From an uncultured Acidobacteriaceae bacterium (GTDB lineage: Bacteria; Acidobacteriota; Terriglobia; Terriglobales; Acidobacteriaceae), in assembly GCA_963765825.1 (NCBI GenBank), contig CAVXXU010000001.1, positions 26,801 to 90,800 on the forward strand: a stretch of DNA of 64,000 nucleotides, read 5' to 3'. A program made the position numbers and the translations under genes. How positions within the stretch are numbered: the stretch's first letter is position 1; each line of letters begins with the position of its first letter. A model generated the notes under the pieces. It made no database searches. It was not told where the DNA came from and saw nothing but the letters and a program-made list of their open reading frames with translations. Positions 8,332 to 62,800 of the stretch are shown here, piece by piece.

Positions 8332-9279
8332 ATGTCTTCGTTCAGTCCTCAACTCGTGAAACCGCCCGCCCTGCGCCCCGGCGATACCGTCGGCATCGTC
8401 GCGCCCGCCAGCAATCTTAAGCGCGCAGATTTAGACGCCGGGTGCAACGCCTTGCGCAGCGCGGGATATCGTCCGCTCTACCTGGACTCCATTCTTGAGC
8501 AGGACCTTTACTTTGCGGGATCGGCCGACCGAAGGGCGCGCGAACTGGAGGAAATGTTCCTCCGCGACGATGTACGCGCCATCGTGTGCGCTCGCGGCGG
8601 CTATGGCGCAAACTATCTGCTGAGTAAACTTGACCTGAACATCGTAAAAGCGCATCCCAAGATTTTCGTCGGATACAGCGACATCGCCACCCTGCTCACC
8701 TGGTTTCACGACGCCGCTGGCCTCGTCACTTTCCACGGACCAATGGCGACAAAGGACTGGGCGCACGCCGACGGCGTCGACCTCGCGTCGTGGCAGGCGG
8801 CCGTCTCCGGAACTACGCCTTGGGATGTGGCTCTGGGCGCGGAAGTCAGCGCCTTGGTCGACGGTGACGCCGAAGGCGTTTTATACGGCGGTTGCCTCTC
8901 GATCCTGGTCGCGTCGCTGGGCACGCCCTGGGAAATCAAAACTGCCGGTACCATTCTCTTCCTCGAAGATCTCGCCACCAAGCCCTATCAGATCGATCGC
9001 ATGCTGATGCAACTGAAACTCGCGGGACATTTCAACGGCGTGCGCGGCATCGTATTCGGAGATATGCTCGACTGCGTGCAGACTGCAAATCAGAATTACA
9101 CTCTTCAGGAAGTGATCACTCGAATTGTCGGAGACCTTGGCGTGCCCGTCGCCTTCGGCGTTCGCTCGGGGCACGTGACCTCAGGCAACATCACGCTGCC
9201 GTTCGGAGTGCAAGCGAAACTGACAGTGTGCGCCGGAAAAGTCGCTCTGAAAATATTAGAATCCGCAGTCACGCCCTAG
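8332..9279 (+). CDS. ldcA: LD-carboxypeptidase (muramoyltetrapeptide carboxypeptidase, peptidase S66)
   Basis: S66 nucleophile motif VGYSDIATLL and GHVTSGNITLP near the C-terminus. Start is either ATG 8332 or TTG 8323. Confidence 0.85.
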   Translation: MSSFSPQLVKPPALRPGDTVGIVAPASNLKRADLDAGCNALRSAGYRPLYLDSILEQDLYFAGSADRRARELEEMFLRDDVRAIVCARGGYGANYLLSKLDLNIVKAHPKIFVGYSDIATLLTWFHDAAGLVTFHGPMATKDWAHADGVDLASWQAAVSGTTPWDVALGAEVSALVDGDAEGVLYGGCLSILVASLGTPWEIKTAGTILFLEDLATKPYQIDRMLMQLKLAGHFNGVRGIVFGDMLDCVQTANQNYTLQEVITRIVGDLGVPVAFGVRSGHVTSGNITLPFGVQAKLTVCAGKVALKILESAVTP

Positions 9280-9304: not shown

Positions 9305-10744
9305 ATGAACCAGAAAAAACACATTCACCTCATTGGCATCTGCGGCACGGCGATGGCCTCTCTCGCCGGAATGCTGAAGCAGCGCGGGTTTCACGTCACC
9401 GGATCCGACGCCGCAGCTTATCCGCCCATGTCAGATTTTCTGCGCGAATTAAACATCCCCGTAGCGCAGCCATTCGACGCGAAAAACCTTGACCCTGCGC
9501 CCGATCTGGTGGTCGTCGGCAATGCCATGTCGCGCGGCAATGTTGAACTGGAGCACGTCCTCGACCAGCGCATCCCCTTTTGTTCTCTGCCGCAGTTGCT
9601 ACACGACGAATTTCTTCGCGGCAAAGAGGTTCTGGTCGTCGCCGGAACTCACGGCAAGACCACGACCACGTCCATGCTGGCGTGGATATTCCATTCCGCC
9701 GGACTGCACCCCTCGTTCCTGATCGGCGGCATCGCCGAAAATTTCGGTTCAAGTTTTCATCTCGACTCCGGCCGGCATTTCATTCTTGAAGGCGACGAGT
9801 ACGACACCGCTTTCTTCGACAAGGGCCCAAAATTTCTGCACTACTTTCCTGACTCGGTGATTCTGACCTCGGTGGAGTTTGATCACGCCGACATTTACGA
9901 AGATCTCGACGCCGTCGAGACTGCATTCAAGCGCCTGGTGAATCTCATTCCGCGCCGCGGACGAATCGTCGCCTTTGACGGCTTTACCGGAGACGCCTCA
10001 GAAAGCCCCAGCCTGGAGCGCTGTTTGGCTAAGGCGTTTTGCCCGGTCGAACGCTACGGCGCTGGCCCGCGCGCGAACTGGAAAGTCACGAACCTGCGTC
10101 TCGACCCCTCGCGCACTGCCTGGACCGTGCTTCACAATGACAAGCCGTGGGCCGATCTCGAGTTCGCGCTCGCCGGCGAATACAACGTCTGGAACGCGAC
10201 CGCCGCCGCGGCTCTTGCAGCCTCATGCGGCGTTCCAAAAGATGCGATCGCCGCCGCGCTGAAAACTTTCAAAAGCGTGAAGCGCCGTCTCGAGGTGAAG
10301 GCTCAGGTGGACGGCATTACGATCATCGACGACTTCGCGCATCATCCCACCGCGATTGCGGGCACGCTGAAAGCGCTGCGGGCGCGCTATCCCAGGGCGC
10401 GCCTATGGGCGATTCTTGAGCCGCGCTCCAACACTCTCCGTCGCCGCATTCTGCAAAGCGACTTAGCTCGCAGCCTGGCGCAGGCCGACCAGGTCATCGT
10501 CGCGGGCGTTTTCCGCTCCGAAGCAGTTCCAGAAAACGAGCGCCTGGAGTTACCAGCGCTCGCCGCGGAGATCGAGCGCAATGGCCGTCCCGCGCGCCTT
10601 CTCAACGACGCCGACGCCATCGTGCAAACCGTCGCTCCTGAGATGCGCAGCGGCGATGTCGTTGCCATTCTCTCCAACGGCGGGTTTGGAGGAATTTATG
10701 AGAAGCTGCCCGCACGCCTGCGCGAACTGGCAGGGAAGCGATGA
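9305..10744 (+). CDS. mpl: UDP-N-acetylmuramate:L-alanyl-gamma-D-glutamyl-meso-diaminopimelate ligase
   Basis: 479 aa. IHLIGICGTAMASLAGMLKQRGFHVTGSD and Mur-ligase P-loop AGTHGKTTTTSML. Confidence 0.9.
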   Translation: MNQKKHIHLIGICGTAMASLAGMLKQRGFHVTGSDAAAYPPMSDFLRELNIPVAQPFDAKNLDPAPDLVVVGNAMSRGNVELEHVLDQRIPFCSLPQLLHDEFLRGKEVLVVAGTHGKTTTTSMLAWIFHSAGLHPSFLIGGIAENFGSSFHLDSGRHFILEGDEYDTAFFDKGPKFLHYFPDSVILTSVEFDHADIYEDLDAVETAFKRLVNLIPRRGRIVAFDGFTGDASESPSLERCLAKAFCPVERYGAGPRANWKVTNLRLDPSRTAWTVLHNDKPWADLEFALAGEYNVWNATAAAALAASCGVPKDAIAAALKTFKSVKRRLEVKAQVDGITIIDDFAHHPTAIAGTLKALRARYPRARLWAILEPRSNTLRRRILQSDLARSLAQADQVIVAGVFRSEAVPENERLELPALAAEIERNGRPARLLNDADAIVQTVAPEMRSGDVVAILSNGGFGGIYEKLPARLRELAGKR

Positions 10745-18567: not shown

Positions 18568-18574
18568 GCGGGAA

Positions 18575-18680
18575 TTTCAGATTGCAGATTTCAAATCTCA
18601 GATTTCAAATTGAATCCTTCGTCGACCCTTCCGGTCTTCAATCAGCAATCAACAATCAAAAATCAGCAATCCCGCCTTGT
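18575..18680. repeat. short-period repeats (CAGATTTCAAAT units, then AATCAGCAATCAACAATCAAAAATCAGCAATC)
   Basis: Seen directly. Immediately upstream of the 18058..18567 gene start. Confidence 0.8.
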
Positions 18681-18974: not shown

Positions 18975-20588
18975 ATGGCTGACTACATTTACACGATGGA
19001 AATCCGGCTGACCCCGGACCAGCTCAAGGGCGCCGGCTTGGTGCAAGACGTAGCCCGCGCCGCCGGCATGAACCTTTACCTCACGGGCGGCGCCATCCGT
19101 GACATCATCAGCGGCTTCACCATCCGCGACCTCGACTTCACCGTTCAGGGCAATCCTCTCAAGCTCCAGAAAGATCTGGAAAAAGCGGGCGCGAAGATCA
19201 CCGCCGTCGAAGAGGACATGCGGACCGTCTTCATCTCGCTGCCCGGCAATGCCCGCGCCGAAATCAGCATGGCGCGCACCGAGCGCTTCGAAAAAACCGG
19301 CAAGCCCCCCATCGTCACTCCCGCCACCATTCACGAAGACCTGCGCCGCCGCGACTTCACCGTCAACGCCATGGCGCTCTCGCTGAATGAAGGCTCCCGC
19401 GGCCTGCTGCTCGATCCTTTCAACGGCGTCGCCGACATCGAGACTAAGGTCATCCGCATTCTTCAGAACTATTCGTTCCTCGAAGATCCTTCGCGCCTCA
19501 TCCGCGCCACTCGCTTTGCCGCCCGCTTCAGTTGGCCGCTCGAAGAGCGCACCCAGGCCCGCTACGACGCGGCCAAGGAAGGCAAGTACATTGACCACAT
19601 CCTGCGCTCCTCCATCGGCCACGAAATCGCGGCCCTGGCGCACGAAGACGATCCCCTGCACGTCGTCAAGATGCTGGAGAAAGAAGGCTGGCTCCAGATC
19701 CTGCACGATCACTGGACCGTCGCGAAAGTCGACGCCAACGGCATCTCGCAGTTGATGAAGACGCGCCAGCAGATGGTCGACATGGGCTACACGCCCGACG
19801 CCGGCCCCGCCGTCATGTATTTCCTGACGTCGCACTTCTCTGACAAAGACGTTGCCGACATTCAGAAACTGATTCCGCGCAAAGACCTGGTCGAGGCTTG
19901 GCGCGACATTGAAGAGCACGCCAAACAGCTGGCCAAGCGCCTGATGGGCAAGGAAGCTGCAACTCCGTCGCGCACCTGGCAGCTGTTATCGTCGGCTCGT
20001 CCGGAGATGGTGTTGTTCCTCGCCGTCACCGCCAAGCAGCAGGCGGTGGAACAGAAAATTAAGAATTACCTGACGAAGTGGCGCCAGGTGCAGCAGAAGC
20101 TGCCGCTGCCTGAAATGACCGAACTGCTGATCACGCCGCAGTTGCCCGAGTATCCCAAACTCGCGCACGACGTCTTCATGCTCTTGCTGGATGGAAAGCT
20201 GCGCTCGCGCACCGAGACGCTGAAATATTTGAAGCCGTTCGCGCCGCCCCCTCCGCCGCCGCCTCCCGCGCCACGCCGAGGTCGCGCTGCCAAAGCTGCT
20301 GCCGCTGAAGCACCCGCAGCACCCGCAGCAGCCGCAGCGGGAAAGCCCGGTCCAAAAGGGAAGAAGGGGAAAGGCGCAGTCCCTCCCGCCGCCCCAGTGG
20401 CTACACCTCCTGTGGCAGCCCCGCCGGCAAAGGCTCCGGCAAAGCCGGCCGAAAAACCCAAGCCCGCGAAACCGACCCCGCCAGCCAAACCCGCACCCAA
20501 ACCGGCAAAGCCCGCCGCGAAACCGGCGAAGAAGCCGGTCGCGAAATCGAAGCCCGCCAAGCCCGCCAAGGGAAAGAAAAAGAAATAG
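18975..20588 (+). CDS. class-II nucleotidyltransferase (CCA-adding enzyme / poly(A) polymerase family) with ~130-aa Ala/Lys/Pro-rich C-terminal tail
   Basis: LTGGAIRDIISGFTIRDLDF, RRDFTVNAMA and EDPSRLIRATRFAARF (PolyA_pol head motifs). Tail PPPPPPPPAPRRG...AKPAEKPKPAKPTPPAKPAPKPAKPAAKPAKKPVAKSKPAKPAKGKKKK. Confidence 0.8.
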   Translation: MADYIYTMEIRLTPDQLKGAGLVQDVARAAGMNLYLTGGAIRDIISGFTIRDLDFTVQGNPLKLQKDLEKAGAKITAVEEDMRTVFISLPGNARAEISMARTERFEKTGKPPIVTPATIHEDLRRRDFTVNAMALSLNEGSRGLLLDPFNGVADIETKVIRILQNYSFLEDPSRLIRATRFAARFSWPLEERTQARYDAAKEGKYIDHILRSSIGHEIAALAHEDDPLHVVKMLEKEGWLQILHDHWTVAKVDANGISQLMKTRQQMVDMGYTPDAGPAVMYFLTSHFSDKDVADIQKLIPRKDLVEAWRDIEEHAKQLAKRLMGKEAATPSRTWQLLSSARPEMVLFLAVTAKQQAVEQKIKNYLTKWRQVQQKLPLPEMTELLITPQLPEYPKLAHDVFMLLLDGKLRSRTETLKYLKPFAPPPPPPPPAPRRGRAAKAAAAEAPAAPAAAAAGKPGPKGKKGKGAVPPAAPVATPPVAAPPAKAPAKPAEKPKPAKPTPPAKPAPKPAKPAAKPAKKPVAKSKPAKPAKGKKKK

Positions 20589-20625
20589 GCTGGAACGATT
20601 CGTTCGCGCTACTTCTAATTACGTA

Positions 20626-20649
20626 GGGACGGACGCATTCGTCCGTCCC
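20626..20649. repeat. REP-like palindrome family B, second copy
   Basis: gggacggacgcattcgtccgtccc, 38 nt after the stop of the nucleotidyltransferase gene. May act as a terminator hairpin. Confidence 0.8.
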
Positions 20650-20826
20650 GGGCTGGATTCTGGAATGCTTTGTCCTATTGCCTCGTGGCCGGCGTGCGCC
20701 TTTGGCAGCATCATCAGAAGGCTTGCGTGGAAGGGCACGGCTTTAGCCGTGCCGTCAGAACCCGCCAAGGACGGGGCGTTAGCCCCTGAGGGCTGCTCCA
20801 CACCAATCGCAAAGCGGAAACAAAAT

Positions 20827-20859
20827 TTGACAATCAGGCGTTATCGCTGAGCGTATAAT
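20827..20859 (+). promoter_or_regulatory. candidate sigma70-like promoter giving a leaderless or near-leaderless transcript of the Gly-rich protein gene
   Basis: Perfect TTGACA (20827-20832) and TATAAT (20854-20859). The spacer is 21 nt, longer than canonical. ATG 20866 lies 7 nt after the -10 hexamer, with no room for an SD. Confidence 0.35.
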
Positions 20860-20865
20860 TTTGCT

Positions 20866-21645
20866 ATGCGCCGCCTGATGGCGATTTCCGCATTCACTCT
20901 CTTCCTGACCGTCCCCCTGTGGGCGCAACATGGCGGCGGAGGTCACGGCGGTTTCAGCGGCGGGCATGCTGGCGGCTTCGGTGGACACGCTTCATTCAGC
21001 GGTGGTCACGTTGGCGGCGGAAGTTTTGCTGGCGGCATGCGTTCGGGCGCTGGGTTCTCTCGCGGAGTTTCTCCTGCGTCGCGCTCCCACGTTTCTCGCA
21101 GTCCCGATCTGCATGGCGGATTTCGCGGCAATCGCTTTGGCTTCAACAACCGCTTTCGCGGCTACGGCTTCCGCAATAACTGCTCTGGCTACCGGTGCGG
21201 TGGTTACGGCTATCCGTGGGACTATTACGGATATTACGATCCGGGGTGGTGGGATTCAGGTTCTTCGTACGATGAGGACGACGAACGTGACCGCGCCACT
21301 GCCAACGACATGAACGAGCAGAGTCTCGAACAACAGCGAATGTTCCATCAGGAACAGGCTGATGGCGATCGCGATGTCTACGCCCGCTCCGATCCCAGGC
21401 CAAGACCGGCGCCCAGCAGCGAACCGCAGGGCACGCCGATCATGCCCGCCACGGTCCTGGTGTTTCGCGATCAGCATCGGAAAGAAATCCAGAACTACGC
21501 CATCGTGGGCCAGACGCTGTGGAATTTCGCTCCGCAGCACACCGAAAAGATTCCACTCGCCGATCTCGATTTGGTAGCCACCGCGAAAGCTAACGATGAT
21601 CGCGGCACCACTTTCCGCGTTCCCGCCAGCAATGAGGCCCAGTAG
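20866..21645 (+). CDS. secreted Gly/His/Phe- and Arg/Gly/Tyr-rich low-complexity protein with globular C-terminal domain
   Basis: 259 aa. Signal peptide MRRLMAISAFTLFLTVPLWA, then GGGGHGGFSGGHAGGFGGHASFSGGH repeats. The C-terminal ~80 aa are non-repetitive. Confidence 0.6.
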   Translation: MRRLMAISAFTLFLTVPLWAQHGGGGHGGFSGGHAGGFGGHASFSGGHVGGGSFAGGMRSGAGFSRGVSPASRSHVSRSPDLHGGFRGNRFGFNNRFRGYGFRNNCSGYRCGGYGYPWDYYGYYDPGWWDSGSSYDEDDERDRATANDMNEQSLEQQRMFHQEQADGDRDVYARSDPRPRPAPSSEPQGTPIMPATVLVFRDQHRKEIQNYAIVGQTLWNFAPQHTEKIPLADLDLVATAKANDDRGTTFRVPASNEAQ

Positions 21646-21867
21646 TTTCTACGGTTTAACTTCTCCAGGCCCCACTCACAGCACCCTCTTGCCTTTCGCT
21701 GCAGCGAAGGGGGTGTTTAATCCCGCGGCGTTTCCTTTTCGCCGCCGGGCTAGTACAGTTAAATCAAACGTTTAGGTCATGACCATCGGATGTGGGGAAC
21801 CTGCGGAAATACGGGGTGAAACCCCGGTAGAACCCTGTCTGAATGGTAAAATAAAAGAATACCCACT

Positions 21868-23337
21868 ATGCCTTTAAAAACACTGTTTCTGAATCCCCCA
21901 TCGTTTGAAAACTTTGACGGAGGGGCCGGGTCGCGTTGGCCCGCCACCCGCGAAATCGAAAGCTACTGGTACCCGGTCTGGTTGGCTTATCCGGCGGGGA
22001 TGCTGGAAGGGGCGCGGCTGCTGGATGCGCCGCCGCATCACGTTTCGGGCGATGAGACCATCGAGATCGCGAAGGAGTACGAGTTTCTCGTGCTCTTCAC
22101 TTCGACGCCGGGATTTCCGGGCGACATTCTTCTGTCGCGCGCGATCAAGCAGGCGAATCCGAATATCAAGATTGCATTTGTGGGACCGCACGTGAGCGTG
22201 CTGCCGGAGAAGTCGCTGCGCGATTGTCCGGAAATCGATTTCGTTTGCCGCAAAGAGTTTGACTTCGCGGTGGTGGACTATGCCAAGGGTAAGCCACTGG
22301 CGGACATACCGGGTGTGTCGTTCCTGAAAGATGGAAAAGTTGTACACAATCCCGATGCGCCGCAGATTCAGGATCTGGACGCGCTGCCGCACGTCACCGA
22401 CGTCTACAGGCGCGATCTCGACGTCACGCGTTACAACGTGCCATTTCTGTTGCATCCGTTCGTTTCGCTCTACACCACGCGTGGCTGCCCGGCGCAGTGT
22501 ACGTTTTGCTTGTGGCCGCAGACGCTAAGCGGACACCCGTGGCGCAAACGTTCCGCCGATGACGTGGCCCGCGAAATGGCGAAAGCTAAGGAAATGTGGC
22601 CGAACGTAAAGGAATTTTTCTTCGACGACGACACTTTCAATATTCAGAAGGCACGCACCATCGAACTCTGCGCCAAGTTGAAGCCGTTGGGCCTGACCTG
22701 GTCCTGCACCTCGCGCGTGACCACCGATTTCGAAACTCTGAAGGCGATGAAGGAAGCGGGCTGCCGCCTGCTGATCGTGGGTTACGAGTCGGGAGACCAG
22801 CAGATCCTGAAGAATATCAAGAAAGGCGCCACGATCGAACGCGCGCGCCAGTTCACCAAGGACTGCCACAAACTGGGCCTGGTGATTCATGGCGACTTCA
22901 TCATGGGGCTGCCGGGTGAGACGCACGAGACCATCAACAACAGCATCGCGTTCGCCAAGGAACTCGACGTGGAAACCATCCAGGTTTCAGTGGCGCACGC
23001 CTATCCGGGCACCGAGCTTTACGACTACGCGGTAAAAAACGGATTCATGGTGGGCGACAACAAGATGGTCGATGAGGGTGGACATCAGCTGGCGCAGATT
23101 CAGTATCCGGGACTGCCGGCTGACGACATCATGTCGGCGGTGCATCGCTTCTATGACGAATATTACTTCCGGCCGAAGGCCGTGTTTCGCATCTTGAGGA
23201 AGGCGGCGTTCGACAGCAACGACCGCAAGCGCCTGTACAAAGAAGCGAAGTCGTTCCTGAAGCTGCGCGCGGCGCGCAACAAGATGGTGAAGAAACATCA
23301 CGACGAAGCCGCGACCGCTGAGCCGGTTAAAGCGTAG
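21868..23337 (+). CDS. hpnJ: hopanoid biosynthesis-associated B12-binding radical SAM protein HpnJ
   Basis: 489 aa. N-terminus MPLKTLFLNPPSFENFDGGAGSRWPATREIESYWYP matches my memory of the HpnJ family. Radical SAM cluster motif CPAQCTFC. Confidence 0.82.
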   Translation: MPLKTLFLNPPSFENFDGGAGSRWPATREIESYWYPVWLAYPAGMLEGARLLDAPPHHVSGDETIEIAKEYEFLVLFTSTPGFPGDILLSRAIKQANPNIKIAFVGPHVSVLPEKSLRDCPEIDFVCRKEFDFAVVDYAKGKPLADIPGVSFLKDGKVVHNPDAPQIQDLDALPHVTDVYRRDLDVTRYNVPFLLHPFVSLYTTRGCPAQCTFCLWPQTLSGHPWRKRSADDVAREMAKAKEMWPNVKEFFFDDDTFNIQKARTIELCAKLKPLGLTWSCTSRVTTDFETLKAMKEAGCRLLIVGYESGDQQILKNIKKGATIERARQFTKDCHKLGLVIHGDFIMGLPGETHETINNSIAFAKELDVETIQVSVAHAYPGTELYDYAVKNGFMVGDNKMVDEGGHQLAQIQYPGLPADDIMSAVHRFYDEYYFRPKAVFRILRKAAFDSNDRKRLYKEAKSFLKLRAARNKMVKKHHDEAATAEPVKA

Positions 23338-23342
23338 CGGCA

Positions 23343-23432
23343 GGTTTCAAAGTTTCACGTTTCAAGGTTTCAAGGCCTTGACTCTTGGCGTCTTTGAAAC
23401 CTTGAGACTCTGCAACCTTGAAAGTTTGAAGC
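23343..23432. repeat. GTTTCAA-based repeat block forming a long imperfect palindrome
   Basis: ggtttcaaagtttcacgtttcaaggtttcaagg ... ctttgaaaccttgagactctgcaaccttgaaagtttgaagcc. Fills the hpnJ-DMT spacer. Confidence 0.8.
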
Positions 23433-23443
23433 CTGAATTCTAA

Positions 23444-23950
23444 GTGACCTTCCGTAAGTATCTGGTGCTGGCTGGAGTGACCGTCTTTGCGGCGGCCGGG
23501 GACTCCATGCTCTCGCACGGAATGAAGCAGACCGGCAATATTTCCCTCCATCACCTGCAGAGCATTATCCTCGCGGTGCTCAATCCGTGGGTGGCGGTGG
23601 GCATTGTTCTGCTGCTCGCGTTTTTCGCCGCGTATATGAACGCACTCTCTTGGGCGGACCTGACTTATGTTTTGCCCGCGACCTCGCTGGGATATGTGCT
23701 GCTGGCGCTGGTGGCGAAGTTTGCGCTGCATGAGCAGGTCAGTCCGATGCGCTGGCTGGGAATTGCGCTGATTTCGGGTGGAGTGGGATTTGTGGCGGGA
23801 GGACCGGCGCTGACTGCGCAAGATTCCAATAAGCCGCTCATCGATTCCGCTCAGGGCAAGCTTCTGGCCGAAAGCTCGAGGAACTCCACCGTTGAGAACG
23901 GATCATCCGTTGAAGACGTTGCCGCGGTATCGAGCGGGGAGCGGCGATGA
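23444..23950 (+). CDS. 4-TM DMT/SMR-like (EamA-type half) membrane protein, subunit 1
   Basis: 168 aa, GTG start, four hydrophobic helices. Paralogous to the next ORF (GD..L...MKQ.G; ALSW.D...V.PA.SL; KF.LHE.V...RW). Confidence 0.65.
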   Translation: MTFRKYLVLAGVTVFAAAGDSMLSHGMKQTGNISLHHLQSIILAVLNPWVAVGIVLLLAFFAAYMNALSWADLTYVLPATSLGYVLLALVAKFALHEQVSPMRWLGIALISGGVGFVAGGPALTAQDSNKPLIDSAQGKLLAESSRNSTVENGSSVEDVAAVSSGERR

Positions 23951-24327
23951 GGGAAGCCTACACCTGGGGCGGCATTGTTGTAGTGGTCTTCGCGTCGGTG
24001 GTGGGGGATGTGTTGCTGGCGCGCGCCATGAAACAAGTCGGCGATGTGCATGAGCTTTGGAGCCGTTCGGGGTTTTGGGCCGTGGTGTCGCGTACGCTGG
24101 GCAACGCGAGTTTTTTTCTGGGCGTGACTGCGATGGCGGTGGCTTTTTTCAGTCTGCTGTTTGCGCTGTCGTGGGGAGACGTGAGTTTGGTGGCGCCGGC
24201 TGCGGCGTCGCTGACTTTCATCGGCAACGCGTTTGCGGCGAAAATCTTTCTGCATGAGAAAGTTGACCGCAGGCGCTGGATTGCGGCAGTGCTGGTGGCG
24301 GGGGGAGTGGCACTGCTGGCGGGATGA
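23947..24327 (+). CDS. 4-TM DMT/SMR-like (EamA-type half) membrane protein, subunit 2
   Basis: 126 aa, four helices. ATGA start/stop overlap with subunit 1. Shares motifs with subunit 1. Confidence 0.65.
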   Translation: MREAYTWGGIVVVVFASVVGDVLLARAMKQVGDVHELWSRSGFWAVVSRTLGNASFFLGVTAMAVAFFSLLFALSWGDVSLVAPAAASLTFIGNAFAAKIFLHEKVDRRRWIAAVLVAGGVALLAG

Positions 24328-29895: not shown

Positions 29896-31512
29896 CTAAC
29901 TGCTGAAGAGGCGCATCAGGTCGGAGGCTGGCAGGTCGGGGGAGAGGAAGCGCGGGACGGTGCGGCCGGCGGCGCGGGCGAGGGCTTCGGCGGCGAGATA
30001 GCCGCTGCGGACGGCGCCTTCCATGGTGGCGGGCCAGCCGGTGGCGGTCCAGTCTCCAGCGAGAAAAACGCGGGGCCATGCGGTGGCGGGCGAGGGGCGG
30101 TGGGCGTCGATGCCGGGGCGCGGGGAATAGGTGGCGTGGAGTTCCTTGATTACCGTGGATTTCACAAGATTGGCAGTGCGGGCGGCGGGGAAGAATTCGC
30201 GGACTTCGGCGAGAGCGAGGTCGACGATTTCGGCGCGGGATTTGTCGATGAGGGATTTGGAGGAGCTGACGACGAGCTCGATGTAGCTGCCGGTCGACTC
30301 AGGATTCTTTCGCCCCTCCGGGGCTATCGCTTCATCGTTGTCGTCGGCCCCACGGCTTGCGCCGTGGGCTGCATTCTTGCGCCGCTCCGCGGCTTGTGCT
30401 GCCGATGTGGGGATAGGGTCGCCTCCGCCGCGGGTGGGATTGCCGGTGGTGCGCATGGGTTGGAGGCGGGATTTGTGAAACATCCATTGGATGGTGCGGT
30501 CGAGGAGGACGGCGTGGTCGAGGTCGGAGATCTGGCGGTCGAACCAGAGGTGGATGCCGGTGATGGGTGCGGTTTCGAAATGGCTGAGTTGCTCGCGGAT
30601 GGGGGCACTTTCGGGAGTGTCGGGGAGGACTTTTTGTAGAGCGTCGAAGGGTAGGGCCAGGATCAGGAAGTCAAAATCCCCACCCTGTCCCTGCAAAGTG
30701 CGCAGGGACAAGGGTGGGGCACCCTCGTTATCCCCACGCTTGTTGGAATTTCTTTCTTCTTGATTTCGGAGTTGCAGGTGAACGCGGTCCGCGTCGGCGG
30801 TGAAACTTTCTATTGGTTGGCGGAAGTGGAGTTCGCCGCCGCGGGCGCGGATGTAGTCGCCGGCGGCGTTGTAGAGGTCGGTGAGGGGGACGGTGGGCAC
30901 GCCCATTTGGCGGGCGGCGGGAGATTTCATGGATTCGCGGACGACTTGAGCGGCGGCTGAGATGGAGATGAGATCGAGTTCCTCGCTCAGGGCGCTGATC
31001 AGGATGGGGCGCCAGAAGCGCTCGACGGCTTGCTTGGTTTGACCGTGCTGATCGAGCCAGTGCTGGAAAGATTGTCCGGTGTCGGGTTGCGAGGTAAGCG
31101 TGAGCGGGACCAGTGCGCGGGCGATGGCGAGTTTGTCGGTAACGCTGAGGAAATGGAAACGCAGAAACGACGGGGCGGTGTGGAGCGGGGCGGGGAGCGA
31201 GGAGGATTTCATGATTGACGTGCGGCCGCCGGGCTCGATGAAGGTCATTTCGTCGTACCAGCGGATTTGGTTGGCGACGCCGATACGGTCGTAAAACTCA
31301 AGCAGGTTGGTGCAGACGCGAAACAGGACGTGCTGGCAGTTGTCGACGACTTCGCCGGTGCCGGGATGTTCCCAGGAGGAAGCACGGCCGCCGAGGAAGG
31401 GACGCTTCTCGAAGAGGGTGACGTGAAAACCGGCGTCGGACAAGGCGCAGGCGGCGGCGAGTCCGGCGAGACCGCCTCCGGCGACTGCGACTTTGGGTTG
31501 GGTGGGAGGCAT
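29896..31512 (-). CDS. hpnE: hydroxysqualene dehydroxylase (FAD-dependent amine-oxidase fold) HpnE, carrying two repeat-derived in-frame insertions
   Basis: 538 aa. Rossmann motif VAVAGGGLAGLAAACALSDAGFHVTLFEKRPFLGGRA. Sits downstream of hpnC-hpnD on the same strand. Confidence 0.85.
   Translation of the reverse strand: MPPTQPKVAVAGGGLAGLAAACALSDAGFHVTLFEKRPFLGGRASSWEHPGTGEVVDNCQHVLFRVCTNLLEFYDRIGVANQIRWYDEMTFIEPGGRTSIMKSSSLPAPLHTAPSFLRFHFLSVTDKLAIARALVPLTLTSQPDTGQSFQHWLDQHGQTKQAVERFWRPILISALSEELDLISISAAAQVVRESMKSPAARQMGVPTVPLTDLYNAAGDYIRARGGELHFRQPIESFTADADRVHLQLRNQEERNSNKRGDNEGAPPLSLRTLQGQGGDFDFLILALPFDALQKVLPDTPESAPIREQLSHFETAPITGIHLWFDRQISDLDHAVLLDRTIQWMFHKSRLQPMRTTGNPTRGGGDPIPTSAAQAAERRKNAAHGASRGADDNDEAIAPEGRKNPESTGSYIELVVSSSKSLIDKSRAEIVDLALAEVREFFPAARTANLVKSTVIKELHATYSPRPGIDAHRPSPATAWPRVFLAGDWTATGWPATMEGAVRSGYLAAEALARAAGRTVPRFLSPDLPASDLMRLFSS
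30300..30420. repeat. REP-like GC-rich hairpin element embedded in frame in hpnE
   Basis: Contains cccacggcttgcgccgtggg (8-bp stem), flanked by cgcccctccggggc and gcgccgctccgcggc. Translated as the low-complexity AAERRKNAAHGASRGADDNDEAIAPEGRK. Confidence 0.55.
30672..30724. repeat. palindromic element family P (copy 1), in frame inside hpnE
   Basis: caaaatccccaccctgtccctgcaaagtgcgcagggacaagggtggggcaccc, with ~17-bp imperfect stem arms. Confidence 0.85.
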
Positions 31513-31564
31513 TCTTAGTTAGAGACTTAGGGTCGAGTCACAAAACTTACTTCTGACGACGAAG

Positions 31565-31635
31565 ATCAGAAGTCAGAAGTCAAAAATCAAAAGTCAGAAG
31601 TCAGAAGTCAACAAGTCAGAAGTCACAAGTCAGAG
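31565..31635. repeat. short-period (7-8 nt) tandem repeat, GTCAGAA/GTCAAAA units
   Basis: atcagaagtcagaagtcaaaaatcaaaagtcagaagtcagaagtcaacaagtcagaagtcacaagtcagag, in the hpnD-hpnE spacer. Confidence 0.85.
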
Positions 31636-31636
31636 T

Positions 31637-31686
31637 AAAATCCCCACCCTCTTTCGCAGAAAACGCGAAAGAAGGATGGGGCACCC
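31637..31686. repeat. palindromic element family P (copy 2), intergenic hpnD-hpnE
   Basis: aaaatccccaccctctttcgcagaaaacgcgaaagaaggatggggcaccc. Same termini as copies 1 and 3; the inner stem sequence differs but is still complementary. Confidence 0.8.
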
Positions 31687-33744: not shown

Positions 33745-33800
33745 GGTCTTCAATCACAATCGGAAATCAACAATCAGAAATCAACAATCATCAATAATTA
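33745..33800. repeat. short-period A-rich repeat (AATCAACAATCA type)
   Basis: caatcacaatcggaaatcaacaatcagaaatcaacaatcatcaataatt, between the dehydrogenase stop and the hpnC start. Confidence 0.8.
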
Positions 33801-33804
33801 TTGC

Positions 33805-36234: not shown

Positions 36235-36559
36235 TGGGTCTTATTTTAGATGATGCGGGCGAGGAGTTTGGTTCAAATCGAGGGCGCGGGTGGACTGATG
36301 GTAACTGGGGTTTCTAGCGGGTGCGGTGGCGTACAAATCGGGGTTTGGGAGTTTTATGAGCCGAGGGCGAAGACGCCCCTTCGACAAGCTCAGGGCGAGC
36401 TCTCGGGACAGCCGGCAGGGTGCCGGCGCTACTCTTATGGTGTGCTGTCTGGGAGCGTGCTGGGCGAGCGGGCCGATGTTGTCAATGGCGCTGCGCCTCA
36501 CGGACTTGCGAGGCGTTTCATGCTATGCTGCGCAAAACTTTTGGATTCCGGGAGTGGCC

Positions 36560-38332
36560 GTGCTGATTGAAATGCGGCTGGAAAATTACGCGGTGATCGA
36601 CAACTTGGTGGTGGAGTTCGGGCAGGGGTTGAACCTGCTGACGGGCGAGACCGGAGCGGGGAAGTCGATCCTGGTGGACGCGCTGGCGCTGCTGTTGGGC
36701 GATAAGGCGTCGAGCGACGTGATTCGCATGGGCGCGGAGCGGGCCATGGTGTCGGCGGTGTTTGAGGCTGAATGCGCGGCGGAGAAGCCGCTCGCGCGGA
36801 TTCTGGAAGCGAATGGGTTGGATGAGTCGGACGACGGGTCTTTGATTTTGCGTCGGGAGATTGCGGCGTGTGGCAAGGGACGAGTGTTCGTGAACAACCA
36901 GCCGGCGACTGTCGCGGTGTTGCGGCTGCTGGCGCCGTTTCTGGCGACGGTCCACGCGCAGAATGAATCGCTCGCATCTTTCGACGGCCCGGCGCGGCTG
37001 GGGCTGCTGGACGCGTTTGCGGGAAGTCAACTCGACGCGATAGAGAGTGGGTTCGCGGCGTGGAAGGAAATTCGCAACCGCATCGACGAACTGGAGCGCG
37101 GAGAGCAGGACCGGCTGCGGCTGGTCGATTTATGGATTTTCCAAAAGAAAGAGATTGAAGAGGCGCGGCCACAGAGCGGAGAAGACGAGGGGCTGGAGAC
37201 GGAGAAGCGCGTTCTGGCGAATGCGGAGAAAATTTATAACGCAGCGATGAACGCGTTTGATTTGCTGTATGAGGGGAATGGTTCGACGGCATCGACATTG
37301 CGAGCGGCGCAGAAGCAGGTGGAGGAGTTGGTTCGGTACGAGCCCAAGTTTCAGGAGGCGCTGGCGGCGCTGGAGACGGCGCGGATCAGCGTGGAAGACG
37401 TGGGCGCGACGGTGCGCGATTATGCGGGAGGGATTCATGCTTCGCCGGAACACCTGGCGCAGGTGGAAGATCGGCTGGCGCTGCTGGAGCGGTTGAAGCG
37501 GAAGTATGGGCCGCGCCTGGATGAGGTGATCGCGTTCGGGGAGGAGGTGACGCGCAAATTGTCGGAGGTCGAGAACAAAGATGAGATTCTGCGCGGGCTG
37601 CGGAGTGAACTGGCGAAGGCTGCGGGGGAGTATTTGCGAGCGGCGCGAGCACTGTCGAAGAAACGGGCGGAGGCGGCACGGCGGCTGGAGAAGTTGGTAG
37701 AGGCCGAGATCAACGATCTGGCGATGAAGTCGGCATTTCGGATTGAGATGACGAGTTCGGACGAGCAAGGGAACTGGACGGGGTCGGGAATCGACCAAGT
37801 TGTATATATGATTTCGACGAATCCGGGGGAGCCGTTGCGGCAATTGGAACATATCGCGTCGGGTGGAGAGTTGTCGCGGGTGATGCTGGCGCTGAAAGCG
37901 AGTGTAGAGGCGGGCAAAAGGCCCGCTCCTAGCAAAGACCGCGAAAAATGGGTCAGCCAGGAAAAAGTCAAAATCCCCGCCCTGTCTCTGCAAAAGACGC
38001 AGAGACAAGGACGGGGCACCCAGAGGACTTTGGTTTTTGACGAGATCGATACTGGGATTGGGGGGCGGGCGGCGGAGGCGGTGGGGAAGAAGTTGAAGTC
38101 GCTGGCACGATCGAACCAGGTGTTGTGCGTGACGCATTTGCCGCAGATCGCTACTTTCGGGGATCATCACTACGTGATTGAGAAGAAGGAATCCGGAGGA
38201 CGGACGCGGACGAGTATTCGCCGGGTGACGGGCGAGGAACGAACGGAAGAAGTGGCGCGCATGTTAAGTGGGGCGAAGCTCACCGAGACTTCGCGCAAGC
38301 ATGCGGAGCAGATGATCAAGACTAACGGGTGA
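36560..38332 (+). CDS. recN: DNA repair protein RecN with ~35-aa in-frame insertion before the Walker B region
   Basis: Walker A LTGETGAGKS. SMC signature SGGELSRVMLALK. Walker B LVFDEIDTGIGG. GTG 36560 gives MLIEMRLENYAVID, a typical RecN N-terminus; the upstream part of ORF 36326.. overlaps a REP-like element. Confidence 0.9.
   Translation: MLIEMRLENYAVIDNLVVEFGQGLNLLTGETGAGKSILVDALALLLGDKASSDVIRMGAERAMVSAVFEAECAAEKPLARILEANGLDESDDGSLILRREIAACGKGRVFVNNQPATVAVLRLLAPFLATVHAQNESLASFDGPARLGLLDAFAGSQLDAIESGFAAWKEIRNRIDELERGEQDRLRLVDLWIFQKKEIEEARPQSGEDEGLETEKRVLANAEKIYNAAMNAFDLLYEGNGSTASTLRAAQKQVEELVRYEPKFQEALAALETARISVEDVGATVRDYAGGIHASPEHLAQVEDRLALLERLKRKYGPRLDEVIAFGEEVTRKLSEVENKDEILRGLRSELAKAAGEYLRAARALSKKRAEAARRLEKLVEAEINDLAMKSAFRIEMTSSDEQGNWTGSGIDQVVYMISTNPGEPLRQLEHIASGGELSRVMLALKASVEAGKRPAPSKDREKWVSQEKVKIPALSLQKTQRQGRGTQRTLVFDEIDTGIGGRAAEAVGKKLKSLARSNQVLCVTHLPQIATFGDHHYVIEKKESGGRTRTSIRRVTGEERTEEVARMLSGAKLTETSRKHAEQMIKTNG
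37969..38021. repeat. palindromic element family P (copy 3), in frame inside recN
   Basis: caaaatccccgccctgtctctgcaaaagacgcagagacaaggacggggcaccc. Confidence 0.85.
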
Positions 38333-51871: not shown

Positions 51872-52028
51872 GCGGTACCTCAGCGGCTAAAGCCGGCATC
51901 ATTTCGGATCGCTTACGGCGCGTCTGAAGCCGCGCCCTTTCAAACAAGGCCGACGCCCTTTCAAAGCAAAGCCAGCACCCTTTCAAAACAAAGGTGCGAC
52001 CTTTTACGGCAAAGCCGACCCCTTTGAG
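51868..52028. repeat. REP-like family C with about 5 degenerate ~21-bp tandem modules (..CGCCCTTTCAAA..)
   Basis: cctcagcggctaaagccg...cgcttacggcgcg...gaagccgcgccctttcaaacaagg/ccgacgccctttcaaagcaaag/ccagcaccctttcaaaacaaagg/tgcgaccttttacggcaaag/ccgacccctttgagac. Confidence 0.8.
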
Positions 52029-53661: not shown

Positions 53662-53733
53662 GTTAATTCTCCCTCAGCGGCTAAAGCCGCGACTCAATTG
53701 GTACGCTTACGGCGCGGCTTTAGGCCGCGCCCT
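53662..53733. repeat. REP-like family C copy between korA and korB
   Basis: cctcagcggctaaagccgcgactcaattggtacgcttacggcgcggctttaggccgcgccctttcaaaaca. Shares the cctcagcggctaaagcc and cgcttacggcgcg blocks with the 51868 copy. Confidence 0.8.
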
Positions 53734-60474: not shown

Positions 60475-60508
60475 GGTGAGAGTGTGCCAGTATACGCGAG
60501 GAAAGCTC

Positions 60509-60535
60509 TTGACCGCAGAGTTCGCGGAGAAGGTC
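60509..60535 (+). repeat. repeat family S copy
   Basis: ttgaccgcagagttcgcggagaaggtc, preceded by gaaagctc. Confidence 0.7.
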
Positions 60536-60624: not shown

Positions 60625-60666
60625 GTTCTCTGCGGGGTTTTCTCTGCGAACTCTGCGGTTAGAAGC
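60625..60666 (-). repeat. repeat family S copy forming the left inverted repeat of the GxxExxY cassette
   Basis: The minus strand reads gcttcTAAccgcagagttcgcagagaaaaccccgcagagaacgcc. The TAA is the stop codon of the GxxExxY reading frame. Confidence 0.75.
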
Positions 60667-61095
60667 TTTCTTTCGCGGTAATAATTTTGTAGGTGCCGTC
60701 GCAATCGTCGGCCGGTTCGCGATAGTTGTTGACCATGCGTTTAATTCCGTCTTTGAGTTGGACGACGTGGAAATTGATCAAGAGGCCAATCTGGAGATCG
60801 AGCAATCGCAGATGTGATAACAACTGAGCTTGGTCTACGGGGTGAAGTGCCTCTTTGATTTGATCTCGACCACGACGCTTCGCTCAACGACTAAATCCGC
60901 GCGAAAGCCGCACTCCAATCTCACTGTCCCATAGATGAGCGGTACTGCTTTCTGTCGCTGCACGTAGAATCCTGACTGCTCAAGCTCATGCGCCAAGCAG
61001 GCTTCGTACGCCGACTCTAAGAGTCCGGGACCAAGCTTACGATGAACTCTTATCGCGGCCCCGATGATCTGACCAGTGAGGTCTGTGTGGATCAC
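60659..61095 (-). pseudogene. GxxExxY-family (PD-(D/E)XK-like) protein gene interrupted by a 1-nt frameshift
   Basis: ORF 60835..61188 encodes ...LTGQIIGAAIRVHRKLGPGLLESAYEACLAHELEQSG...ADLVVERSVVVEIKSK, then stops. The family C-terminus (EALHPVDQAQLLSHLRLLDLQIGLLINFHVVQLKDGIKRMVNNY...) continues in another frame down to stop 60659-60661. Likely start GTG 61095, with GAGG 8 nt upstream. Confidence 0.65.
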
Positions 61096-61202
61096 GTCTT
61101 GCGCCTCAGCTATGACTTTACTCCGCGAGGCAAGTTGGTTGGAGAGATAACGTTCAAAAAAGCCGAACCGATTCCTGAAATGAACCACAATGGAGAGTGA
61201 AA

Positions 61203-61256
61203 AGGCTTCTAACCGCTGAGTTCGCGGAGAACGGCCGCTGAGGACGCGGAGAAAGG
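61203..61256 (+). repeat. repeat family S copy forming the right inverted repeat of the GxxExxY cassette
   Basis: aggcttctaaccgctgagttcgcggagaacggccgctgaggacgcggagaaagg. About 27 of 29 positions match the reverse complement of 60636-60666. Confidence 0.75.
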
Positions 61257-62725: not shown

Positions 62726-62747
62726 CGTGTTTGATTACGAGGACAGA

Positions 62748-62800
62748 AAGCTTTTAACCGCGGAGTTCGCAAAGTGAAATCCGCAGAGATCGCAGAGAAG
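62748..62800 (+). repeat. repeat family S copy
   Basis: aagcttttaaccgcggagttcgcaaagtgaaatccgcagagatcgcagagaag. Confidence 0.7.

What the first reader, a model, noticed from the sequence alone, without database searches (positions are those of the whole stretch)
37921..38030. Palindromic repeat element inserted in frame inside recN, between the SMC signature motif and Walker B
The signature motif SGGELSRVMLALK is separated from Walker B (LVFDEIDTGIGG) by about 44 residues (ASVEAGKRPAPSKDREKWVSQEKVKIPALSLQKTQRQGRGTQRT). From memory, RecN proteins of E. coli and B. subtilis have only about 8-12 residues there.

The segment KIPALSLQKTQRQGRGT is encoded exactly by a ~53-bp palindromic element (37969-38021). 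The same element recurs at 30672-30724 and 31637-31686. A selfish hairpin element that keeps the reading frame open inside a conserved DNA-repair ATPase parallels Rickettsia palindromic elements. To my knowledge this has not been described for this lineage.
Basis: partly seen in the sequence, partly recalled or inferred. Interest (0 to 1): 0.75.

Follow-up and report, generated by a model that had tools for sequence, protein, structure and literature searches.

The report
REP hairpin repeats inside recN
Two copies of a small hairpin-forming DNA repeat (a REP element, the kind mobilised by a RAYT transposase) sit in frame in a loop of the DNA-repair gene recN of a soil acidobacterium; this is real, but it is a new example of a known phenomenon.

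Summary
recN (36560-38332, +) has a 44-residue linker between the signature motif and Walker B. The usual RecN linker is 11 residues.

The extra 99 nt are two tandem copies of one hairpin repeat: an intact copy at 37965-38021 and a decayed copy at 37911-37958. Two more copies lie at 30668-30724, in frame inside hpnE on the opposite coding strand, and at 31632-31686, which is intergenic.

The repeat is not a new kind of element. It is the reverse complement of the REP sequences (foot GGGTGC/GGTG plus a CCCCAY hairpin) catalogued beside RAYT transposase genes of Acidobacteria by Quentin et al. 2018. In related genomes fetched here, inverted copies flank RAYT genes, which is the REPtron arrangement.

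Orthologues show gain and loss. The RecN linker ranges from 21 to 65 residues in 78 related species and carries at least three hairpin families. The hpnE sites are filled, empty or hold a remnant.

Metagenome copies lie in frame in ligA, mutL, rarA/mgsA, ftsZ, RNase R and other genes. They also show a strong strand bias. A confident AlphaFold model places the insert in a low-confidence coil.

In-frame REPs in repair genes are already described in other phyla. Verdict: new member of a known kind, moderate interest.

The parts
36560..38332 (+). recN coding sequence (590 aa, GTG start)
   Evidence: TIGR00634 RecN at 505 bits against a cutoff of 408. A 100% identical 590-aa database protein, P0001, exists. 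The AlphaFold model matches D. radiodurans RecN 4AD8/4ABY.
37898..38029 (+). RecN linker between the signature-motif helix and the Walker B strand; 44 codons against the usual 11
   Evidence: Modelled as coil with pLDDT 41-65, between helix 435-452 and strand 490-494.
37965..38021 (+). Intact REP copy (5' tail AAGTCAAAAT, hairpin, 3' GCACCC), read as VKIPALSLQKTQRQGRGT. In the REP convention (foot GGGTGC first) it lies on the - strand.
   Evidence: Covariance model R1 at 56.2 bits, E = 4e-14. Fold of -31.2 kcal/mol, z = -4.9.
37911..37958 (+). Decayed REP copy of the short form, read as GKRPAPSKDREKWVS, in tandem with the intact copy
   Evidence: Model R1 at 25 bits, E = 5e-5. Orthologues carry an intact short copy (PTSRKEREKWGTQ) at this position.
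30668..30724 (+). Intact REP copy in frame inside hpnE, translated from the - strand as GAPPLSLRTLQGQGGDFD
   Evidence: Model R1 at 55.4 bits. Present, absent or reduced to a remnant among hpnE orthologues.
29896..31512 (-). hpnE (hydroxysqualene dehydroxylase), 538 aa against a 430-position profile; carries two in-frame repeat insertions
   Evidence: TIGR03467 at 447 bits. Orthologue alignment.
31632..31686 (+). Intergenic REP copy between hpnE and hpnD
   Evidence: Model R1 at 59 bits. No spanning ORF. Conserved at the same position in L001, L005, L006, L013 and L023.
31561..31632 (+). Array of about 7-nt units (AGAAGTC-like) abutting the 5' tail of the intergenic REP
   Evidence: the repeat finder families D4 and D5; sequence. 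The unit resembles the REP 5' tail AAGTCAAAA.
30349..30394 (+). Second, unrelated repeat inside hpnE (site 2), matching Rfam Acido-Lenti-1
   Evidence: RF01687 at 49.3 bits against a gathering score of 37. Present or absent among orthologues.

Best explanation
The segment is two tandem copies of a REP (repetitive extragenic palindrome) of the acidobacterial family: foot GGGTGC/GGTG, then a CCCCAY...RTGGGG hairpin. REPs are non-autonomous elements. Their cognate RAYT enzyme is a single-strand-specific HUH/Y1 tyrosine transposase that recognises the hairpin and its foot.

Copies landed in the loop that joins the RecN signature-motif helix to the Walker B strand. They persist for three reasons. 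The hairpin core has no stop codon in any frame in the window's intact copies. The net added length is a multiple of three. The loop tolerates extra, probably disordered, residues.

After insertion the site keeps changing by new insertions, tandem duplication, internal insertions or deletions, slippage deletion and point decay. This makes the loop hypervariable among close relatives.

**Shown:** family identity; the REPtron association in the same clade; in-frame retention; gain and loss at orthologous sites; strand bias; loop location.

**Inferred:** that RAYT catalysed the insertions; that the insert is translated; that it is near-neutral for RecN.
For: **Identity**
- The reverse complement of the window copies (GGGTGCCCCACCC...GGGTGGGG) has the same foot and stem ends as REPs listed beside RAYT genes. 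These are K. versatilis ABF42478.1, A. capsulatum ACO33629.1 and G. mallensis AEU35143.1 (PMC6006769 Table S1).
- One listed variant, GGGTGCCCCATTCAAGCC..GGCTTGAGTGGGG, matches copies seen here in L027, L082 and L101.

**REPtron arrangement**
- In L170, a RAYT gene (NF047646 at 112 bits, cutoff 80; Pfam Y1_Tnp) is flanked by inverted copies at 9104-9155(-) and 9756-9807(+).
- The same arrangement occurs in L201, which lies on the same 625-kb contig as recN orthologue L040, and in Ca. Sulfotelmatobacter contigs L202-L204.

**Hairpin.** On 38 copies, 90.9% of cells pair against 81% in shuffles, with 71 double-change cells against 27.5, and 0 of 500 shuffles reach the observed values.

**Insertion**
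- The usual RecN linker is 11 aa.
- It is 21-65 aa in 78 related species and in the 120 closest proteins, which carry 0 to 3 element copies. There are four architectures among proteins at least 92% identical.
- hpnE site 1 is filled in 11 orthologues and empty in about 27. Three (L005, L006, L034) hold a hairpin-less remnant that differs by 39 nt bounded by a GGGTG direct repeat, and a fourth (L007) retains a GGDFDF remnant.

**Generality.** Pfam confirms in-frame copies inside LigA, RNase R, MutL, MgsA/RarA (twice), MoeA, PEP carboxylase, FtsX, FtsZ, MeaB, ThiE and others.

**Strand specificity**
- The element strand is the G-rich strand of its flanks in 91 of 111 metagenome copies (p = 5e-12).
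- In the window the skew has the same sign in genes of either orientation.

**Loop.** The AlphaFold model has pLDDT 89.4. The insert, residues 453-489, is coil at pLDDT 41-65.
Against: - No RAYT gene lies in the 64-kb window, and the source genome could not be scanned.
- No close RecN orthologue has an empty 11-residue site; the minimum is 21 aa. The original insertion into recN is therefore inferred, not captured.
- Many copies are conserved at orthologous positions across species, for example in hpnE and in the hpnE-hpnD spacer. Current mobility may be low.
- From my own knowledge, RAYT-driven REP transposition has been shown only as in vitro cleavage and rejoining, not as in vivo movement.
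- Perfect inner-stem complementarity with different stems at different loci is not simply explained by copying followed by random decay.
- Translation of the insert is not demonstrated.
Confidence: 0.85

Rival explanations
1. The hairpins are host-functional cis elements, for example mRNA stabilisers or processing sites, protein-binding sites, or translation pause sites. On this view selection keeps them in recN and hpnE, and they are not tolerated junk.
For: - Several copies are conserved at orthologous positions, with intact and covarying stems, across species whose RecN proteins are about 80-90% identical. Examples are hpnE site 1 and the hpnE-hpnD spacer.
- REPs elsewhere are reported to bind gyrase and IHF and to stabilise mRNA (background given in PMC3733652).
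- Repair and replication genes recur among the hosts: recN, ligA, mutL and rarA.
Against: - Copies are lost or decayed in many orthologues while the gene stays intact.
- Unrelated hairpin families occupy the same sites.
- Host genes are functionally unrelated and several reading frames on both strands are used.
- No expression data exist.
- This reading does not conflict with the REP identity. It only adds a role.
Confidence: 0.12
2. The long linker is an ancestral, lineage-specific basic loop of RecN with a protein-level function, and its palindromic DNA is incidental.
For: - Every one of about 200 close RecN sequences has an extended linker of at least 21 aa.
- The encoded peptides are mostly Lys/Arg-rich.
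Against: - The same DNA element occurs in intergenic DNA, in other genes read in other frames and from the other strand, and beside RAYT genes.
- Linker sequence and length are not conserved even at 92-95% overall identity.
- The region is modelled as low-confidence coil.
Confidence: 0.03
3. The insertion is an assembly or binning artefact, that is, repeat-induced misassembly in a metagenome-assembled genome.
For: The window and most relatives are metagenome assemblies. Repeats can mislead assemblers.
Against: - The open reading frame is preserved through the insert in 78 independently assembled genomes and in 120 protein clusters from several sources, including long-read-scale contigs of up to 7.2 Mb.
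- The element is only about 50 nt long, shorter than a sequencing read.
Confidence: 0.01

Closest known systems
REP sequences associated with RAYT/TnpA-REP transposases (REPtrons), specifically the acidobacterial REPs with a GGTG/GGGTGC foot listed for subclass 2.1/2.2 RAYTs (Quentin et al. 2018, PMC6006769 Table S1)
   Same: - The same foot and stem ends (GGGTGC-CCCCAY...RTGGGG).
- Hairpins of about 30-55 nt with variable inner stems.
- Many dispersed copies.
- Inverted copies flanking a RAYT gene in genomes of the same clade.
   Different: - The window holds no RAYT gene.
- Three of the four window copies are inside genes rather than extragenic.
- The copies here also carry a conserved tail, (G)AGTCAAAAT, on the side opposite the foot. 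That tail is not part of the consensus sequences printed in that table.
Intragenic GTAG/CGTC REPs (Di Nocera et al. 2013, PMC3733652)
   Same: - In-frame REP monomers, dimers and clusters that encode roughly 10-80 extra residues.
- Often found in DNA replication and repair genes (uvrA/B/D, polA, recBCD, ligase, dnaE2).
- Two insertions can occur in one gene.
   Different: - That survey sorted REPs by GTAG or CGTC tags and reported Opitutus, Rickettsia, Thauera and others.
- In the passages I retrieved, Acidobacteria appear only for their transposases, and a text search found no mention of recN.
- Repeated colonisation of one codon-level site by several families was not described in the text I read.
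Rickettsia palindromic elements (RPEs)
   Same: Selfish palindromic repeats that sit in frame in housekeeping genes and are thought to be tolerated in surface regions of the proteins.
   Different: - The RPEs as first reported are about 150 bp, are specific to Rickettsia, and each encodes a conserved peptide (PMC10969869).
- The present element is about 48-57 nt, is read in several frames, and is tied to a RAYT gene.
- Sequence relatedness to RPEs was not tested here.
Rfam Acido-Lenti-1 RNA (RF01687)
   Same: A short hairpin motif found in Acidobacteria. One copy also sits inside hpnE in this window.
   Different: It is a different sequence family. The recN element matches no Rfam family even at E = 1.

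Membership tests
REP / RAYT system (REPtron) | Short imperfect palindrome that forms a stable hairpin | tested here: met
   Folds of -23 to -36 kcal/mol with z-scores of -3.9 to -5.1. On 38 copies, 90.9% of cells pair, with compensatory changes above all 500 shuffles.
REP / RAYT system (REPtron) | Conserved short 'foot' (guide) sequence at one end of the hairpin | tested here: met
   GCACCC is invariant at the 3' end of all 38 aligned copies, which equals a 5' GGGTGC foot on the other strand. The same foot is recorded for acidobacterial REPs. It is a GGTG variant, not the canonical GT[AG]G.
REP / RAYT system (REPtron) | Copies flank a RAYT (Y1/HUH) gene in inverted orientation | tested here: met
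   Seen in L170, in L201 (same contig as recN orthologue L040) and in L202-L204 (Ca. Sulfotelmatobacter). Not seen in the window, which has no RAYT gene.
REP / RAYT system (REPtron) | High copy number dispersed through one genome | tested here: inconclusive
   There are 4 copies in 64 kb. No whole genome could be scanned.
REP / RAYT system (REPtron) | Cleavage and rejoining by the cognate RAYT on single-stranded DNA | not testable with these tools
   Only indirect support: a strand bias of 91/111 relative to the GC skew of the flanks.
REP / RAYT system (REPtron) | Predominantly extragenic location | tested here: inconclusive
   Most copies outside recN and hpnE have no spanning ORF. However, 3 of 4 window copies, and at least 14 of 124 metagenome copies, lie in frame inside genes.
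Rickettsia palindromic elements | In-frame presence inside conserved protein-coding genes | tested here: met
   recN, hpnE and 14 further genes.
Rickettsia palindromic elements | Member of the RPE sequence families (about 150 bp as first reported, Rickettsia lineage, each encoding a conserved peptide) | tested here: not met
   The element is 48-57 nt long, comes from Acidobacteriota MAGs, and is read in several frames giving different peptides. RPE properties are taken from PMC10969869. No direct sequence comparison with RPEs was made.
MITE | Terminal inverted repeats of a parent insertion sequence, plus target-site duplication | tested here: inconclusive
   No flanking duplication is evident. 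The only direct repeat (GGGTG/CACCC) is foot against stem, so it is internal to the element. No parent insertion sequence was seen. The element is a single hairpin.
Rfam Acido-Lenti-1 (RF01687) | Scores above the family's gathering threshold | tested here: not met
   No hit for the recN, hpnE site 1 or spacer copies even at E = 1. Only the separate element at 30349-30394 matches.
RecN (TIGR00634) | Full-length match above the curated cutoff, with an SMC-like head fold | tested here: met
   505 bits against a cutoff of 408, split by the insert into two stretches. Foldseek top hits are 4AD8 and 4ABY.

The most novel reading that the evidence does not exclude
In these soil Acidobacteria, REP families may repeatedly target the same few codon-level sites, namely loops of RecN, HpnE, MgsA and the FtsZ linker. 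Insertion next to a resident hairpin is one possible route. They also seem to fall in replication and repair genes more often than chance would give. If so, REP/RAYT activity would be a fast, site-directed generator of loop diversity. It could be functionally coupled to the DNA-repair machinery rather than being random junk filtered by selection.
Probability: 0.12. Interest if true: 0.6.

Novelty: new member of a known kind. Interest (0 to 1): 0.35.

Why it matters
**Annotation.** Insert-bearing RecN and HpnE split into two profile matches, and hypervariable loops in alignments of these MAGs are repeat-derived. One Rfam 'sRNA' family (Acido-Lenti-1) is found here inside a coding sequence, as a segment that is present or absent among orthologues.

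**Biology.** The result extends in-frame REP colonisation of housekeeping genes, repair genes in particular, to abundant soil and peat Acidobacteria. It also supplies a clade with dozens of species-level snapshots of gain, loss and decay at the same sites. Such a series suits the study of how REP/RAYT systems persist and how proteins tolerate inserted peptides. It does not reveal a new type of element or mechanism.

Tried and rejected
- **Codon-usage model.** A log-odds model trained on recN, meant to call intragenic copies, could not separate the sense frame from the antisense frame. I replaced it with Pfam checks of spanning ORFs.
- **Source contig.** The look-up of encoding contigs found no record for the window's own RecN, so the source contig and genome could not be explored.
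- **Class 3 transposases.** I considered class 3 Y1 transposases and their 'CnGA-foot' structures, about 600 of which are reported in Solibacter (PMC6006769), as the cognate system. I set this aside because I saw no consistent CnGA at the tail end of the copies listed, whereas the subclass 2.1/2.2 REPs match exactly.
- **HUH/Y motif search.** A first regular expression was too strict and found nothing. A looser one found the RAYT gene in L170.
- **Structure.** The first AlphaFold run, on a shallow alignment of sequences at least 86% identical, gave pLDDT 41 and was discarded. A deeper alignment gave a usable model.
- **Target-site duplication.** The 39-nt difference between filled and hairpin-less hpnE alleles is bounded by GGGTG. 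One repeat is the foot and the other is part of the stem. L007, L015, L018 and L027 show that the tail-encoded GGDFD is separate from the native FDY motif. Deletion from a filled ancestor is therefore the better reading.
- **Replication origin.** DnaA boxes are not enriched near the GC-skew switch, so I make no origin call.
- **Stop-free frames.** My hand estimate that all six frames are open holds only for the hairpin core of the window's intact copies. With the 5' tail included, one minus frame has a stop. Among 139 distinct copies, 13-25% have a stop in any given frame.
Full report
**1. The observation**

The window encodes a RecN protein. The ORF 36326..38332(+) most likely starts at the GTG at 36560, because a 590-aa database protein is 100% identical. 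It matches TIGR00634 at 505 bits against a cutoff of 408, in two stretches.

Between SGGELSRVMLALK and LVFDEIDTGIGG lie 44 residues, at 37898-38029.
- Of 104 diverse RecN representatives clustered at 50% identity, 80 have exactly 11 residues there and 91 have 9-12.
- The D. radiodurans crystal sequence aligns with a break from query 448 to 490, against 413 to 420 in the chain.

The excess is therefore about 33 residues, or 99 nt.

The repeat is real. The pattern AAAATCCCCRCCC-N(15-40)-GGGGCACCC occurs three times, all on the + strand, at 30673-30724, 31637-31686 and 37970-38021. None of 100 shuffles gave a match. All three fold as hairpins with z-scores of -3.9 to -5.1.

**2.

I built a covariance model (R1) from 38 copies. 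On that alignment 90.9% of cells pair against 81% in shuffles, and 71 cells carry double changes against 27.5 expected, with 0 of 500 shuffles as high.

R1 finds four copies in the window, all on the + strand:

| Coordinates | Score | Location |
|---|---|---|
| 31632-31686 | 59 bits | hpnE-hpnD spacer |
| 37965-38021 | 56 bits | recN |
| 30668-30724 | 55 bits | hpnE |
| 37911-37958 | 25 bits, E = 5e-5 | recN, decayed |

The decayed copy lies six bases upstream of the intact recN copy. The recN insert is thus a tandem of two elements. Close relatives carry an intact short-form copy (PTSRKEREKWGTQ) where the window has the decayed PAPSKDREKWVSQ.

The copy at 30668-30724 is also intragenic. It lies in frame in hpnE (29896-31512, minus strand; TIGR03467 at 447 bits) and is read from the opposite strand as EGAPPLSLRTLQGQGGDFDF. 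Only the copy at 31632-31686 is intergenic.

**3. Comparative evidence for gain and loss**

*RecN.*
- The 120 closest proteins (86-100% identity) have linkers of 25-65 residues. These are built from one to three element-derived peptides. There are four different architectures among proteins at least 92% identical.
- In 78 species-level genomes of Ca. Sulfotelmatobacter-like Acidobacteriaceae (74-92% RecN identity), the linker is 21-65 residues with a median of 31.
- The DNA shows at least three unrelated hairpin families at this one site: the present family in short, long and internally expanded forms; GTGG-CGCGGGCG..CGCCCGCG; and GCGGCCCTTCAGGGCCGC.
- More distant Acidobacteria-like RecNs have 15-44 residues, and most other bacteria have 11.

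*HpnE.*
- Site 1 carries the element in 11 orthologues. It is empty in about 27, for example ...NPEQAFDYL.... In L005, L006 and L034 it is reduced to GAG-GGTGGGGAYTTTGAC. This differs from the filled allele by 39 nt bounded by a GGGTG direct repeat. L007 keeps a further remnant, QGGDFDFS.
- L007, L015, L018 and L027 keep the tail-encoded GGDF/GGEV segment apart from the native FDY motif. I therefore read the short alleles as hairpin deletions, not as empty targets.
- Site 2, which holds the Acido-Lenti-1 match in the window, is empty in most orthologues. Elsewhere it is occupied by at least three other repeat types.

**4. Identity of the element**

No Rfam family matches it, even at E = 1. The literature does.

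Table S1 of Quentin et al. 2018, 'REP manually identified in REPtrons', lists the following beside RAYT genes (PMC6006769):
- Koribacter versatilis ABF42478.1: GGTGCCCCATTCTAAGC...GCTTAGGGTGGGG
- Acidobacterium capsulatum ACO33629.1: GGGTGCCCCACATCTCGCAGAGATGTGGG and GGGTGCCCCATTCAAGCCTGGTTTTGGCTTGAGTGGGG
- Granulicella mallensis AEU35143.1: GGTGCCCCATCCTCGACGCGC...GGGTGGG

These are the reverse complement of the present family, with foot GGGTGC followed by a CCCCAY...RTGGGG hairpin.

My own data show the defining genomic arrangement:
- In metagenome locus L170, a 173-aa gene matches NF047646 (REP-associated tyrosine transposase) at 112 bits against a cutoff of 80, and Pfam Y1_Tnp. Inverted copies flank it at 9104-9155(-) and 9756-9807(+).
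- Homologues of that RAYT are abundant. One, P0295, sits on the same 625,001-bp contig as recN orthologue L040. Another, P0298, is from Ca. Sulfotelmatobacter.
- Both are flanked by inverted copies scoring 50-65 bits.

The element is therefore a REP of a RAYT system resident in this clade.

**5. How general is the in-frame habit**

Pfam confirmed that at least 14 lie in frame within real genes, with domains on both sides. The hosts are:
- NAD-dependent DNA ligase
- RNase R
- MutL (in its linker)
- MgsA/RarA (two contigs)
- MoeA
- PEP carboxylase
- an ASPIC/UnbV protein
- a molybdenum hydroxylase
- an MFS transporter (C-terminal tail)
- an FtsX-type permease (two tandem copies)
- the FtsZ C-terminal linker
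- MeaB
- ThiE (four tandem copies)

Both strands and several reading frames are used. The resulting peptides end in ...WGTQ, ...DGAP/NGAP or ...MGHP on one strand, and begin with GAP... on the other.

The hairpin core of the window's intact copies is stop-free in all six frames. With the 5' tail included, one frame has a stop. Across 139 distinct copies, 13-25% carry a stop in any given frame.

Four of the host proteins seen here (RecN, LigA, MutL and MgsA/RarA) act in replication or repair. This echoes Di Nocera et al. 2013, who reported that intragenic REPs often lie in such genes in other phyla (PMC3733652). I did not test the enrichment statistically.

**6. Strand bias**

The strand reading 5'-tail-hairpin-GCACCC-3' is the G-rich strand of its flanks, with the element itself excluded:
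- in 91 of 111 metagenome copies with at least 1.5 kb of flank (p = 5e-12);
- in 51 of 64 copies with at least 4 kb of flank.

In the window all four copies are on the G-rich + strand. The + strand skew is positive in every gene, whatever its orientation (recN +0.31; hpnE, which is on the minus strand, +0.28). The skew is therefore strand-wide, not transcription-linked.

This fits a process that acts on one DNA strand, as known for HUH/Y1 enzymes. I cannot say whether the direction agrees with the lagging-strand-template model described for IS200/IS605 (background in PMC6006769). Strand-specific selection is an alternative.

**7. Where the insert sits in the protein**

A shallow alignment gave an unusable model with pLDDT 41. 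An 85-sequence alignment gave pLDDT 89.4 and pTM 0.74. Its best structural matches are D. radiodurans RecN 4AD8 (TM 0.74 to target) and the head domain 4ABY (TM 0.87).

Residues 453-489 are coil, apart from a four-residue helix. Block pLDDT there is 41-65, flanked by blocks above 90. The region lies between the signature-motif helix (435-452) and the Walker B strand (490-494). This is consistent with a flexible loop. It does not prove surface exposure or lack of effect.

**8. Mechanism and rivals**

*Best explanation (confidence about 0.85).* RAYT-associated REP copies entered a permissive loop and were retained. They keep the frame open and add a multiple of three bases. Later insertion, duplication, slippage deletion and decay produce the hypervariable loop.

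*Shown:* family identity, REPtrons in the clade, polymorphism at orthologous sites, in-frame retention, strand bias and loop location.

*Inferred:* catalysis by RAYT, translation and near-neutrality.

*Weak points:*
- There is no RAYT gene in the window.
- No empty recN site exists among close relatives.
- Many copies are old and conserved at orthologous positions.
- The perfect but locus-specific inner stems are unexplained.

*Rivals:*
- A host function for the hairpins (about 0.12; compatible with the REP identity).
- An ancestral functional basic loop (about 0.03; contradicted by the dispersed copies).
- An assembly artefact (about 0.01).

**9. Novelty and score**

The element type, its transposase association in Acidobacteria, and in-frame REPs in repair genes are all published (PMC6006769, PMC3733652). 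RPEs are the classic analogue (PMC10969869). I found nothing on intragenic REPs in Acidobacteria, in recN, or in Sulfotelmatobacter.

The finding is a new member of a known kind. Its modest extras are multi-family hot spots, a clade-wide series of gain and loss, and the strand bias. Interest: 0.35.

Noticed in passing
window 30349-30394 (+), inside hpnE (29896-31512, -): An Rfam Acido-Lenti-1 'sRNA' match (49 bits against a gathering score of 37) lies inside the hpnE coding sequence, antisense and in frame (peptide ...AAHGASRG...). In four of the five orthologues scanned that carry this insert (L001, L011, L017, L029) the only hit is at the same hpnE site. L012, which also carries the insert, gave no hit, and most orthologues lack the segment. 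Here it behaves like another inserted repeat, not like a stand-alone RNA gene.
   Followed up: partly
window about 20000-24000: The GC skew of the + strand flips from about -0.08 (1-20 kb) to +0.2 (24-48 kb), with the cumulative minimum near 21-23 kb. This is origin-like, but DnaA boxes are not enriched and the neighbouring genes are a polyA-polymerase/CCA-adding-like gene, a B12/radical-SAM gene and a GAF gene. It could be an origin remote from dnaA, an inversion breakpoint, or a misjoin.
   Followed up: partly
window 31561-31632; also 18572-18671 and 33757-33803: Arrays of about 7-nt units (AGAAGTC / CAATCAG-like). The array at 31561-31632 runs straight into the 5' tail (AAGTCAAAAT-like) of the intergenic REP. 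This suggests tandem expansion of the tail motif. Its function is unknown.
   Followed up: no
window 36370-36430, just upstream of recN: Another repeat-like module, CCCTTCGACAAGCTCAGGGCGAGC (read as PFDKLRAS or LRQAQGEL). The same module of about 24 nt is nested inside long forms of the REP in RecN linkers and elsewhere (L015 20825-20896, L071 945-1019, L098). Some REP copies are therefore composite.
   Followed up: partly
hpnE orthologues, site 2 (window residues about 355-410); L007, L020, L045; L015, L018, L024, L034; L030 3604-3651: One HpnE loop carries at least four different repeat-derived inserts in different species: AAHGASRG (Acido-Lenti-1-like), RGRAALQGRV (GCGGCCCTTCAGGGCCGC hairpin), REGHDFSRA, and, in L030, a REP of the present family in the opposite orientation. 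Most orthologues have none.
   Followed up: partly
window 60501-60531, 60640-60670, 61202-61231, 62747-62776; and 51878-51925 / 53672-53719: Two further dispersed repeat families, one of which forms inverted pairs about 110-530 nt apart. They are unrelated to the recN element by the covariance model, apart from one weak 11-bit hit.
   Followed up: no
L137 11318-11356(-) and 11400-11442(+): Two REP copies in inverted orientation about 45 nt apart, a REPIN-like dimer. The family therefore also occurs as inverted doublets, unlike the direct tandem in recN.
   Followed up: no
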